Shown in pieces: positions 1 through 1,902 of a stretch of DNA of 1,983 nucleotides; the first letter of the stretch is position 1; every line of letters begins with the position of its first letter. The notes beneath the pieces are model-generated. The model did no database searches. It saw only the letters and a program-made list of their open reading frames with translations, and was not told the DNA's origin. Position numbers and translations under genes: made by a program. Origin of the DNA: Escherichia coli (GTDB lineage Bacteria; Pseudomonadota; Gammaproteobacteria; Enterobacterales; Enterobacteriaceae); the NCBI RefSeq assembly GCF_003334765.1, contig NZ_QOWT01000075.1; one strand, 5' to 3'.

Positions 1-225
1 GCTCTGTATCACTGTATTGTCTTCCGGCAACTGATGAGGGCTGGCAGAAGTCGCCGGTGTTTCGGTAGCGTCACGTTCATTCACCACGCGGAGTGAATAA
101 CCGTTTTCAGCGACTTTGTTAATCAGTTCAGCGAGCTCAATACCATCGACGTCAACGACAATGCGCCCCATGTTCAGCGCCTGCGCATTAATGCTGTCGG
201 CTTCCAGCGTCAGGGCCAGTTTCAT
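1..225 (-). CDS. yeeW: YeeW-like protein, 5' portion only (75 codons; continues beyond window start)
   Basis: Manual minus-strand translation from ATG at 225..223 gives MKLALTLEADSINAQALNMGRIVVDVDGIELAELINKVAENGYSLRVVNERDATETPATSASPHQLPEDNTVIQS with no stop up to position 1. N-terminus matches my recollection of E. coli YeeW. The ATG overlaps the toxin stop as ATGA (222..225). Possible SD GGGGG about 9 nt upstream. Not in the ORF track, presumably because it is truncated by the window edge. Confidence 0.7.
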   Translation of the reverse strand, partial: MKLALTLEADSINAQALNMGRIVVDVDGIELAELINKVAENGYSLRVVNERDATETPATSASPHQLPEDNTVIQS

Positions 226-599
226 TGTTTCGCCCCCGGATGTTTACCCAGGGTAATGTTATTTACCGTTCTGTAGTTGTCGCGTGTCATCAGGCCGGTT
301 GCCCGGCGTGCCCGGAGAATATCAATGCTGTTGATTAACTGCGACGGGGCTCCTGCGCTGAATCCCGGCTGGTCGGTACGTACCAGCGCGTATTTTTCAA
401 CGAGAAAGTTCACCGCGTCACACAGTGAAATCCCTGCCTCAATATGCTGCTCAATCACACGTTCATCAGCGAACGGTGTGTCATTCAGCGTGAGGCCATA
501 GTGCTGGTCCAGCAGTCGGGTGAGCAGTGTCTGCCAGATGGTGATGGGAGACGGGCAGCCCGATGCCTCCCGTACGTGAGTGTCGGGTAATGTATTCAT
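222..599 (-). CDS. cbtA: Type IV toxin, CbtA/YeeV/YkfI/YpjF family (inhibitor of FtsZ and MreB polymerisation)
   Basis: ORF-track protein from the internal Met: MNTLPDTHVREASGCPSPITIWQTLLTRLLDQHYGLTLNDTPFADERVIEQHIEAGISLCDAVNFLVEKYALVRTDQPGFSAGAPSQLINSIDILRARRATGLMTRDNYRTVNNITLGKHPGAKQ (125 aa), close to recalled E. coli CbtA/YkfI over most of its length. Start chosen at ATG 599..597, which sits after the antitoxin stop with a weak SD (AGAGAA); the track's 160-aa version begins at a GTG at 704 inside the antitoxin gene. Stop TGA at 222..224. Confidence 0.88.
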   Translation of the reverse strand: MNTLPDTHVREASGCPSPITIWQTLLTRLLDQHYGLTLNDTPFADERVIEQHIEAGISLCDAVNFLVEKYALVRTDQPGFSAGAPSQLINSIDILRARRATGLMTRDNYRTVNNITLGKHPGAKQ

Positions 600-645
600 C
601 TTAAGTTCTCTGTAACAGGTGGTTATAAAGGGGAGATATCCGGTG

Positions 646-1023
646 TTATACGGTGGTTGCGGGCGCTGCCGGTGTCGGATAAACAGCCAGATAAACGTAA
701 CCACAGGAGCCGAGGGTGTCGGCTTCGCAGGTCAGCCCTTTCGCATACAGTGTCACGGTATGCTGATGGCGGGGATTCAGTTCACCACTGGTGAGCATGA
801 GCTCCAGTTGTTTCATCAGCAGCGGAAAGGCCTGGTCCAGGTGGTATGCATCTGCATCGCTGAACCGGCCTCTGATACCGGCGCGGTCGGCAAGGTAATG
901 CAACCGGTTACCCTTCTGCACCAGACGTGCCCCGAAACAGGGCGTCACGGTGCAGGGCAGTCCCCACCAGAGGCGGTCGTGATTGTCGTCGGGAGGCGTT
1001 GTCCCGGGGAGTGTGTCTGACAC
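646..1023 (-). CDS. cbeA: Type IV antitoxin, CbeA/YeeU/YfjZ/YafW family
   Basis: 125-aa translation MSDTLPGTTPPDDNHDRLWWGLPCTVTPCFGARLVQKGNRLHYLADRAGIRGRFSDADAYHLDQAFPLLMKQLELMLTSGELNPRHQHTVTLYAKGLTCEADTLGSCGYVYLAVYPTPAAPATTV matches recalled YeeU/CbeA closely. Start codon is GTG (plus 1021..1023 is cac), preceded by GAGGA at 1031..1035. Stop TAA at 646..648. Lies directly upstream of the toxin, as expected for this pair. Confidence 0.88.
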   Translation of the reverse strand: MSDTLPGTTPPDDNHDRLWWGLPCTVTPCFGARLVQKGNRLHYLADRAGIRGRFSDADAYHLDQAFPLLMKQLELMLTSGELNPRHQHTVTLYAKGLTCEADTLGSCGYVYLAVYPTPAAPATTV

Positions 1024-1030
1024 GATAAAG

Positions 1031-1035
1031 TCCTC
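1031..1035 (-). promoter_or_regulatory. Shine-Dalgarno GAGGA for the GTG-initiated antitoxin gene
   Basis: Plus 1031..1035 is tcctc, i.e. GAGGA on the minus strand, about 7 nt upstream of GTG at 1023..1021. Confidence 0.6.
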
Positions 1036-1072
1036 ACAGAAAATCGGTTAAGAATGGTCCGGTAGTGGCGAT

Positions 1073-1091
1073 AATTCTGCTCATCAGAATT
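1073..1091. repeat. Perfect 7-bp inverted repeat with 5-nt loop (AATTCTG ctcat CAGAATT) in the yeeT-cbeA intergenic region
   Basis: Read directly from plus 1073..1091. It sits about 50-70 nt upstream of the antitoxin start. No U-tract follows on the transcribed strand, so it is not a classic intrinsic terminator. Confidence 0.6.
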
Positions 1092-1102: not shown

Positions 1103-1324
1103 TCAGTTCAGGGTGACGCTCATCAGCCGGACATACGGACCAAAACTGTCCTTACGGCGTTCTGCAAACACAGCCAGTACACCGGGAATATCCTGCACTT
1201 CACGGCCGGTATATGTATCCGTGCTACCGTGCCAGCGGTATTTACCGGTACAGAACGGAAAAAGACGGGATGCAGGATGCTGACGGTGAATACGCATGGC
1301 TTCACCACGGGTGATGATTTTCAT
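1103..1324 (-). CDS. yeeT: DUF987-family small protein (YeeT/YpjJ/YkfH-like), function unknown
   Basis: 73-aa translation MKIITRGEAMRIHRQHPASRLFPFCTGKYRWHGSTDTYTGREVQDIPGVLAVFAERRKDSFGPYVRLMSVTLN matches recalled E. coli YeeT. ATG at 1324..1322 with a canonical AGGAGG SD at 1334..1339 (9-nt spacer). Stop TGA at 1103..1105. Conserved position between the RadC-like gene and the antitoxin. Confidence 0.85.
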   Translation of the reverse strand: MKIITRGEAMRIHRQHPASRLFPFCTGKYRWHGSTDTYTGREVQDIPGVLAVFAERRKDSFGPYVRLMSVTLN

Positions 1325-1410: not shown

Positions 1411-1887
1411 TTAAAGCAGACCGTGTTCCGCAAAGGAGAAAACCTGGCTGCCACCGACTATCAGATGGTCCGGTACCCGGATATCAACCAGGGCCAGTGC
1501 CTGTACCAGACGCTCAGTGATAAGGCGGTCTGCCTTGCTGGGGGGGACTTCACCGGACGGGTGATTGTGCGCCAGCACCACGGCAGCGGCATTGTGGTAC
1601 AGGGCGCGTTTAATCACTTCCCGGGGATGGACTTCCGTACGGTTGATGGTGCCGGTGAAGAGGGTTTCACCGGCAATCAGCTGATTCTGGTTGTTCAGAT
1701 ACAGCACCCGGAACTCTTCACGCTCCAGTCCCGCCATGTTCAGAATCAGCCATTCCCGTGCCGCATGCGTGGAGGTGAAGGCCACGCCGGGTTCATGAAG
1801 ATGGCGGTCCAGGGTTTTCAGGGCCCGCTGAATGAGGCTGCGCTCGCCGGGTGTCATCTCTCCGGGCAGAAAGGAAAGTTGTTGCAT
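1411..1887 (-). CDS. yeeS: RadC-like JAB/JAMM-domain protein (YeeS/YfjY/YkfG family; historically mislabelled DNA repair protein RadC)
   Basis: Translation MQQLSFLPGEMTPGERSLIQRALKTLDRHLHEPGVAFTSTHAAREWLILNMAGLEREEFRVLYLNNQNQLIAGETLFTGTINRTEVHPREVIKRALYHNAAAVVLAHNHPSGEVPPSKADRLITERLVQALALVDIRVPDHLIVGGSQVFSFAEHGLL (158 aa) contains the JAMM signature H-x-H-x7-S-x2-D (HNHPSGEVPPSKAD, encoded at 1528..1569). Start set at ATG 1887..1885, which has GGAGAG 9 nt upstream; the track's longer ORF starts at ATG 1902..1900, which has no SD and abuts the upstream stop. Stop TAA at 1411..1413. Confidence 0.88.
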   Translation of the reverse strand: MQQLSFLPGEMTPGERSLIQRALKTLDRHLHEPGVAFTSTHAAREWLILNMAGLEREEFRVLYLNNQNQLIAGETLFTGTINRTEVHPREVIKRALYHNAAAVVLAHNHPSGEVPPSKADRLITERLVQALALVDIRVPDHLIVGGSQVFSFAEHGLL

Positions 1888-1894
1888 TGTGCTT

Positions 1895-1900
1895 CTCTCC
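1895..1900 (-). promoter_or_regulatory. Shine-Dalgarno GGAGAG for the RadC-like gene, lying within the first-ATG codons
   Basis: Minus strand reads TGA ATG GAG AGA AGC ACA ATG; GGAGAG sits 9 nt upstream of the ATG at 1887. Confidence 0.55.
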
Positions 1901-1902
1901 AT

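What the first reader, a model, noticed from the sequence alone, without database searches (positions are those of the whole stretch)
1021..1035. Antitoxin initiates at GTG
The antitoxin ORF has no in-frame ATG at its N-terminus; it begins at GTG with a GAGGA site upstream. A non-ATG start on the protective component is a possible way to tune the antitoxin-to-toxin ratio. I recall the K-12 homolog using ATG, but I am not sure of that.
Basis: partly seen in the sequence, partly recalled or inferred. Interest (0 to 1): 0.25.

Follow-up and report, generated by a model that had tools for sequence, protein, structure and literature searches.

The report
Ordinary GTG start of cbeA antitoxin
The antitoxin gene really does begin at GTG behind a good ribosome-binding site, but so does its E. 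coli K-12 counterpart and about nine in ten related copies, so this is an ordinary, already annotated feature.

Summary
Window 1021-1035 (minus strand) is the translation initiation region of a cbeA/yeeU-type type IV antitoxin gene: GAGGA (1035-1031), a 7-nt spacer, then GTG (1023-1021). An in-frame TAA lies 9 codons upstream. No other ATG/GTG/TTG precedes the conserved domain, and the first in-frame ATG is codon 70. RefSeq annotates this same start.

K-12 cbeA (b2004) also starts at GTG; only the paralogs yafW and yfjZ use ATG.

It is not a sequencing error. In 5,426 complete E. coli genomes, YeeU-type start regions carry GTG at 8,550 places and ATG at 703 (7.6%). Identical antitoxin and toxin proteins are encoded behind ATG in one strain and GTG in another.

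Across Enterobacterales and prophage contigs, antitoxin starts are mixed: 27 ATG, 17 GTG, 12 TTG, with at least 5 switches. All 55 neighbouring toxin genes use ATG behind a weak Shine-Dalgarno site.

So the antitoxin's start codon changes freely in evolution. That is compatible with dosage tuning, but the natural ATG/GTG polymorphism argues against a critical role. Verdict: ordinary, already known, low interest.

The parts
1021..1023 (-). GTG start codon of the cbeA/yeeU-type antitoxin gene
   Evidence: same start annotated in RefSeq for the identical E. coli 55989 sequence and at the homologous GTG in K-12 cbeA
1024..1030 (-). 7-nt spacer CTTTATC between the Shine-Dalgarno site and the start codon
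1031..1035 (-). Shine-Dalgarno site GAGGA; duplex with the 16S rRNA 3' end -5.9 kcal/mol
1048..1050 (-). in-frame TAA 9 codons upstream that bounds the antitoxin reading frame
646..1023 (-). cbeA/yeeU-type antitoxin CDS (125 aa plus TAA); Pfam CbeA_antitoxin PF06154 covers residues 19-117
814..816 (-). first in-frame ATG of the antitoxin frame (codon 70), too far in to be the start
222..599 (-). cbtA-family toxin CDS (125 aa), ATG start at 599-597, 46 nt after the antitoxin stop; Pfam CbtA_toxin PF06755
606..611 (-). weak Shine-Dalgarno-like AGAGAA ahead of the toxin ATG (-2.9 kcal/mol)
1034..1084 (-). 16-codon upstream ORF (MSRIIATTGPFLTDFL*) whose TGA stop (1036-1034) overlaps the antitoxin Shine-Dalgarno site; probably incidental
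1103..1324 (-). DUF987 (yeeT-like) gene upstream of the antitoxin

Best explanation
Positions 1021-1035 are the ribosome-binding site and start codon of a cbeA/yeeU-type type IV antitoxin gene on the minus strand. It sits in a CP4-44-like island with the gene order antirestriction, radC, DUF987, cbeA, cbtA, DUF5983. The 30S subunit pairs with GAGGA, and initiator fMet-tRNA reads the GTG 7 nt downstream, so the protein begins with Met (MSDTLPG...). GTG is the inherited, typical start of the YeeU clade, K-12 cbeA included. By general knowledge it gives somewhat less initiation than ATG would. In this family the antitoxin:toxin translation ratio is more visibly set by Shine-Dalgarno strength: strong for the antitoxin, weak GAGA-type for the ATG-initiated toxin. 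The identity of the start is shown here from sequence and comparison. The size of any expression effect and any selective value of GTG are inferred, not shown.
For: Anatomy: GAGGA, 7 nt, GTG; an in-frame TAA 9 codons upstream; no other canonical start before the conserved WWGL motif; the Pfam domain begins at residue 19. Annotation: the same start is annotated in RefSeq for the identical 55989 sequence, and the homologous GTG in K-12. Solved structures 2INW and 2H28 were made from proteins starting MSDTLPG. Census in 5,426 complete E. coli genomes, using 31-mers in which every 28-base seed word must include the first base of the start codon: with the GAGGACTTTATC context, GTG 953 places against ATG 4; with GAGGATTTTATC, GTG 4898 against ATG 669; with TAAGGATTTTATC, GTG 2699 against ATG 30. 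All 17 YeeU-type loci from other collections but one (L006) use GTG. E. albertii carries an in-frame 4-codon deletion just after the start, which is consistent with that stretch being translated. Mean Shine-Dalgarno duplex energy is -7.7 kcal/mol for antitoxins and -3.4 for toxins. GUG and UUG initiate at 10-100% of AUG in E. coli reporters, and the product still begins with Met (10.1101/063800).
Against: No protein-level or ribosome-profiling evidence for the N-terminus was found. The structures used the annotated ORF, so they are not independent evidence. Residues 1-18 lie outside the Pfam domain and vary between clades, so the sequence of the extension itself is poorly constrained. The effect of GTG versus ATG on CbeA level was not measured.
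Confidence: 0.9

Rival explanations
1. One reading: the non-ATG start is maintained by selection because it sets CbeA synthesis, and hence the antitoxin:toxin ratio, at a particular lower or IF3-sensitive level.
For: Non-ATG starts account for 29 of 56 antitoxin genes (17 GTG, 12 TTG), against about 17% genome-wide in E. coli. All 55 neighbouring toxin genes use ATG (background). At least 5 independent switches map onto the antitoxin tree. TTG-start antitoxins have the strongest Shine-Dalgarno sites (mean -10.0 kcal/mol, against -7.4 for ATG starts), which looks like compensation. There is a precedent: the GTG start of lacI has measurable fitness effects (PMC11445065).
Against: ATG alleles make up 7.6% of YeeU-type copies in E. 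coli and occur on at least four allelic backgrounds (L006, L037, L040, L041). The identical antitoxin/toxin protein pair is found behind ATG (L040) and behind GTG (L042). One strain carries an ATG copy and a GTG copy. GTG-start antitoxins do not have stronger Shine-Dalgarno sites than ATG-start ones (-5.9 against -7.4). The counts are not phylogenetically independent. CbeA acts on FtsZ and MreB rather than by binding the toxin (PMC5624674), so a strict stoichiometric ratio is less obviously needed. No expression data exist.
Confidence: 0.2
2. The antitoxin GTG is reached mainly by ribosomes that terminate on the 16-codon upstream ORF (1084-1034), whose TGA stop overlaps the Shine-Dalgarno site. 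This would couple cbeA translation to the yeeT-like gene upstream.
For: The upstream ORF starts 18 nt after the yeeT-like stop, has an AAGGG 7 nt before its ATG, and ends inside GTGAGGA. It is intact in K-12, where TGA is replaced by TAA so that a stop is preserved, and in L004, L005 and L037.
Against: Substitutions among these copies are 5 nonsynonymous to 4 synonymous, so purifying selection is not evident. The ORF is absent where a different gene remnant lies upstream, although the last ~30 nt and the GTG are kept (L003, L007, L036, L040-L042). In L043 a 1-nt deletion fuses it in frame to cbeA. Clades with a short DUF987-antitoxin spacer have no room for it. The K-12 TGA-to-TAA change is equally well explained as GAGGA to AAGGA within the Shine-Dalgarno site.
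Confidence: 0.08
3. The annotated start is wrong, and translation begins at another codon.
For: Residues 1-18 lie outside the Pfam domain and are poorly conserved between clades. The paralogs YfjZ and YafW lack this extension.
Against: There is no ATG, GTG or TTG between the upstream TAA and codon 26. Codons 26 and 35 lie after the invariant W20-G21-L22 and have no Shine-Dalgarno site. Every clade places a start with a Shine-Dalgarno site 3-25 codons before the WGL motif.
Confidence: 0.02
4. The G at 1023 is a sequencing or assembly error for A.
For: None found.
Against: The first 17 records listed match all 1983 bases with no mismatch, and 39 records are at least 99% identical. Exact 31-mers containing this GTG occur at 953 places with the window's own upstream context, against 4 with ATG.
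Confidence: 0

Closest known systems
E. coli K-12 cbeA (yeeU, b2004) of cryptic prophage CP4-44, antitoxin of the CbtA/CbeA type IV toxin-antitoxin system
   Same: It has the same gene order (radC-like yeeS, DUF987 yeeT, cbeA, cbtA, yeeW-like). The proteins are about 91% identical. It uses the same GTG start at the homologous codon with the same 7-nt spacing, and has the same 16-codon upstream ORF.
   Different: K-12 has AAGGA instead of GAGGA. Its C-terminus differs (PEMKN against PAAPATTV). Its cbeA-cbtA spacer is 88 nt rather than 46 nt.
Shigella flexneri protein of PDB 2INW (YeeU family)
   Same: It is nearly identical over all 125 residues, including the MSDTLPGTTPPDDNHD N-terminus and the PAAPATTV C-terminus.
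   Different: Four residue differences. Only the protein is on record there, so its start codon was not seen.
K-12 paralogs yafW (CP4-6) and yfjZ (CP4-57)
   Same: They belong to the same Pfam family and sit in the same position between a DUF987 gene and a CbtA-family toxin gene.
   Different: Both start at ATG, lack the 17-residue N-terminal extension, and lie only about 20 nt after the DUF987 stop.
lacI GTG start in E. coli (start codon as an expression dial)
   Same: It is a non-ATG start on a regulatory or protective protein, where GTG lowers synthesis relative to ATG (PMC11445065).
   Different: For lacI the effect was measured in vitro and in mice. For cbeA nothing has been measured, and ATG alleles are common in nature.

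Membership tests
CbeA/YeeU antitoxin family (Pfam PF06154) of type IV CbtA/CbeA toxin-antitoxin systems | Protein matches the CbeA_antitoxin profile | tested here: met
   PF06154, E = 8.8e-55, residues 19-117 match model positions 2-100 of 101. PDB relatives 2INW, 2H28, 2JN7 and 2EA9. No NCBIfam model matched; RefSeq nevertheless names the protein CbeA.
CbeA/YeeU antitoxin family (Pfam PF06154) of type IV CbtA/CbeA toxin-antitoxin systems | A CbtA-family toxin gene lies immediately downstream on the same strand | tested here: met
   The ORF at 599-222 matches PF06755 with E = 6.2e-62, and starts 46 nt after the antitoxin stop.
CbeA/YeeU antitoxin family (Pfam PF06154) of type IV CbtA/CbeA toxin-antitoxin systems | Located in a CP4-44-type island (antirestriction, radC-like, DUF987 upstream; DUF5983/yeeW-like downstream) | tested here: met
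   RefSeq annotation of the identical 55989 locus and of K-12 CP4-44.
CbeA/YeeU antitoxin family (Pfam PF06154) of type IV CbtA/CbeA toxin-antitoxin systems | Neutralises CbtA by bundling FtsZ/MreB polymers rather than by binding the toxin | not testable with these tools
   Known for K-12 CbeA from the literature (Masuda et al. 2012, as cited in PMC5624674). Inferred here from about 91% identity.
Genuine GTG-initiated E. coli gene | In-frame GTG preceded by a Shine-Dalgarno site at 5-9 nt, with no alternative start that keeps the conserved domain | tested here: met
   GAGGA, 7 nt, GTG; TAA 9 codons upstream; next candidates at codons 26, 35 and 70.
Genuine GTG-initiated E. coli gene | Start position conserved in orthologs | tested here: met
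   The same codon is the start in all YeeU-type loci examined, as GTG or ATG. In E. coli genomes it is GTG at 8,550 places and ATG at 703.
Genuine GTG-initiated E. coli gene | Experimentally determined N-terminus or initiation-site footprint | not tested
   No such data turned up in the paper searches.

The most novel reading that the evidence does not exclude
In CbeA-family modules the antitoxin's start codon is a selected expression dial. It has switched among ATG, GTG and TTG at least five times. Non-ATG starts are about threefold commoner than the genome background, and TTG starts go with stronger Shine-Dalgarno sites. Meanwhile the toxin keeps ATG behind a uniformly weak GAGA-type site. 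Start-codon choice, and with it sensitivity to IF3, would then help set when the toxin escapes neutralisation.
Probability: 0.15. Interest if true: 0.3.

Novelty: already known. Interest (0 to 1): 0.08.

Why it matters
It matters little. The GTG start of cbeA/yeeU is already in the reference annotation of K-12 and of this exact sequence, and GTG starts are routine in E. coli at about 14% of genes. The one mildly useful by-product is a natural experiment. E. coli genomes hold hundreds of ATG alleles of the same antitoxin, some paired with identical proteins, which anyone studying toxin-antitoxin dosage could compare directly with the GTG alleles. The contrast within the family (a freely changing start codon with a strong Shine-Dalgarno site on the antitoxin, a fixed ATG with a weak site on the toxin) is a tidy illustration of how the two genes are translated unequally. 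It does not open a new question.

Tried and rejected
Sequencing error was rejected.

An alternative start codon was rejected: none exists between the upstream TAA and codon 26.

RNA structure hiding or exposing the start was rejected. The -67 to +54 region folds no better than shuffled sequence (z = +0.65).

No known RNA family matches the window at E <= 1 on either strand.

A promoter or antisense promoter at the site is not supported. There are two weak sigma-70-like matches on the plus strand, against 1.6 expected by chance.

The AUGUG/GUGUG dual-frame initiation described in PMC9841429 does not apply, because the site reads GUGUC.

The upstream ORF as a conserved leader peptide is not supported across contexts.

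NCBIfam gave no model for the antitoxin, the toxin or the DUF987 protein; Pfam did for the antitoxin and the toxin.

Literature searches for a study of the yeeU/cbeA start codon found nothing specific. One search call failed on term length.

The metagenome scan was not used, because the E. coli genome census already answered the question.

Full report
**What is in the window.** All genes lie on the minus strand. The window is 100% identical to a chromosomal island of E. coli 55989, 042, O104:H4 and other strains. RefSeq annotates that island as antirestriction protein, RadC family protein, DUF987 protein, CbeA antitoxin, CbtA-family toxin and a truncated DUF5983 protein.

In window coordinates:
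- The radC-like gene ends at 1411.
- The DUF987 (yeeT-like) gene is 1324-1103.
- The antitoxin is 1023-646.
- The toxin is 599-222.

Pfam confirms the two central genes. CbeA_antitoxin PF06154 matches with E = 8.8e-55 over residues 19-117, and CbtA_toxin PF06755 with E = 6.2e-62. Solved structures of near-identical proteins exist: 2INW from Shigella and 2H28, K-12 YeeU.

**The observation.** On the minus strand, 1035-1031 is GAGGA, 1030-1024 is CTTTATC and 1023-1021 is GTG.
- The reading frame is closed by TAA at 1050-1048, nine codons upstream. None of the codons in between (CCG ATT TTC TGT GAG GAC TTT ATC) is ATG, GTG or TTG.
- Downstream, the next in-frame candidates are GTG at codons 26 and 35 and ATG at codon 70.
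- All three lie after the invariant W20-G21-L22 motif where the conserved domain begins.

So GTG 1023-1021 is the only start that yields a complete antitoxin, and RefSeq annotates exactly this start (L001 6961).

**The K-12 comparison.** K-12 MG1655 cbeA (yeeU, b2004) is annotated from a GTG at the homologous position. Its sequence reads TAAGGATTTTATC GTG TCAGACACACTC. It fits the two K-12 paralogs, yafW and yfjZ. Both start at ATG, and both lack the 17-residue N-terminal extension.

**Population census.** I used 31-base megablast queries in which every possible 28-base seed word contains the first base of the start codon, so only places with that base can be reported. Counts are places in 5,426 complete E. 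coli genomes.

| Upstream context | GTG places | ATG places |
|---|---|---|
| Window type, GAGGACTTTATC | 953 | 4 |
| GAGGATTTTATC | 4898 | 669 |
| K-12 type, TAAGGATTTTATC | 2699 | 30 |
| Total | 8550 | 703 (7.6%) |

A fourth pair of queries was anchored downstream of the start. It gave 4190 places with GTG and none with ATG.

Fetched examples show that the ATG alleles are intact genes next to intact toxin genes, on several allelic backgrounds (L006, L037, L040, L041).
- L040 (ATG) and L042 (GTG) encode the identical antitoxin WP_001295723.1 and the identical toxin WP_000854765.1.
- Strain SK1144 carries one ATG copy and one GTG copy.

The G at 1023 is therefore real and is the majority state. 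The ATG swap proposed as an experiment already exists in nature and is tolerated.

**Family-wide pattern.** Two scans gave 56 loci with an assignable antitoxin start: one genome per species and viral/prophage contigs.
- Antitoxin starts are 27 ATG, 17 GTG and 12 TTG, each with a Shine-Dalgarno site 5-9 nt upstream.
- GTG marks the YeeU clade (N-terminus SDTL...).
- TTG marks at least two other clades (SKKTTITTHD..., SNKTPTA...).
- On a neighbour-joining tree, at least five switches are needed.
- All 55 toxin genes found beside these antitoxins start at ATG (33, 22). They sit behind a weak GAGA-type site.
- Mean duplex energy with the 16S rRNA 3' end is -3.4 kcal/mol for toxins and -7.7 for antitoxins.
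- By start codon, the antitoxin means are -10.0 kcal/mol for TTG starts, -7.4 for ATG and -5.9 for GTG.

These counts are not phylogenetically independent. For comparison, E. coli genes overall use AUG, GUG and UUG at about 83%, 14% and 3% (10.1101/063800).

**How it most likely works.** The 30S subunit binds GAGGA, and initiator tRNA reads GTG, so the protein starts with Met. This is established knowledge; quotes mass-spectrometry support for Met at GUG and UUG starts. In reporters, GUG gives 10-100% of the AUG level, so GTG probably lowers CbeA synthesis modestly compared with an ATG allele.

Shine-Dalgarno strength is the more consistent difference between the two genes of the module. That step is shown by sequence only. 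Expression levels are inferred.

Whether GTG is kept by selection is open. The excess of non-ATG starts on antitoxins and the strong Shine-Dalgarno sites of the TTG-start genes point toward tuning. The frequent ATG alleles with identical proteins point toward near-neutrality. A further neutral reading is that the N-terminal extension (residues 1-18, outside the Pfam domain and variable in length between clades) is weakly constrained, so start sites and start codons turn over easily.

CbeA is reported to protect by bundling FtsZ and MreB rather than by binding CbtA (PMC5624674). That makes an exact antitoxin:toxin stoichiometry less obviously necessary.

**Surroundings.**
- A 16-codon ORF (1084-1034, MSRIIATTGPFLTDFL*) begins 18 nt after the DUF987 stop and ends in a TGA that overlaps the Shine-Dalgarno site.
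- It is intact in K-12 (with a TAA stop), L004, L005 and L037.
- Its substitutions are 5 nonsynonymous to 4 synonymous.
- It is missing where another gene remnant lies upstream, and in one prophage contig it is fused in frame to cbeA.
- I regard it as probably incidental.
- The start region has no unusual RNA structure (z = +0.65).
- No Rfam family matches the window.
- Promoter-like matches do not exceed chance.

**Comparison with what is known, and verdict.** This is a member of the CbeA/YeeU family in a CP4-44-type island, with the same GTG start as the K-12 reference gene. The feature is already annotated and is of a common kind. Interest is low. The only mildly new points are the natural ATG/GTG polymorphism and the start-codon asymmetry between antitoxin and toxin across the family.

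Noticed in passing
window 1034-1084 (minus strand): A 16-codon upstream ORF (MSRIIATTGPFLTDFL*) starts 18 nt after the DUF987 stop. Its TGA stop (1036-1034) overlaps the antitoxin Shine-Dalgarno site. It is kept in K-12 with a TAA stop, but it is absent in other upstream contexts, and in L043 a 1-nt deletion fuses it in frame to cbeA.
   Followed up: partly
window 597-611 (minus strand), and the toxin genes of L002-L066: The toxin gene uses ATG in the window and in all 55 related loci. It always sits behind a weak GAGA-type Shine-Dalgarno site (about -3 kcal/mol, against about -7.7 for the antitoxin). This is a consistent translational asymmetry within the module.
   Followed up: partly
window 222-225 (minus strand): The toxin stop and the start of the DUF5983 (yeeW-like) gene overlap as ATGA, which suggests translational coupling. 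RefSeq marks that DUF5983 gene as a truncated pseudogene in the identical 55989 locus.
   Followed up: no
window 600-660 versus L002 2982-3069: This allele has a different antitoxin C-terminus (PAAPATTV, as in Shigella 2INW) and a 46-nt antitoxin-toxin spacer, compared with PEMKN and 88 nt in K-12. The 3' end of cbeA and the spacer appear to have been exchanged between alleles.
   Followed up: no
L003, L004, L006, L007, L036: YeeU loci that are 90-94% identical to the window are filed under Collinsella, Lachnospiraceae, Arthrobacter and Mesorhizobium assemblies. They sit on contigs of 464-2781 bases; two record titles give coverage of 0.7x and 1.5x. This is very likely E. coli contamination or mis-binning rather than true hosts.
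   Followed up: no
L040-L042 (about 1362-1523): In many E. coli islands a roughly 160-nt remnant, or in L041 a full 214-aa copy, of a hypothetical gene lies between the DUF987 gene and the antitoxin. Only the last ~30 nt before the start codon are shared with the window. That marks the upstream edge of the conserved initiation region.
   Followed up: partly
window 1887-1902 (minus strand): The longest radC-like ORF starts at ATG 1902, directly after the end of the antirestriction gene at 1903. RefSeq starts radC five codons later, at 1887 (MQQLSF...). The true start is unresolved.
   Followed up: no
L031 (about 1486-1560): This Kosakonia antitoxin homolog seems to have its ATG in a different frame from the rest of the gene, so it is probably a frameshifted pseudogene.
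   Followed up: no
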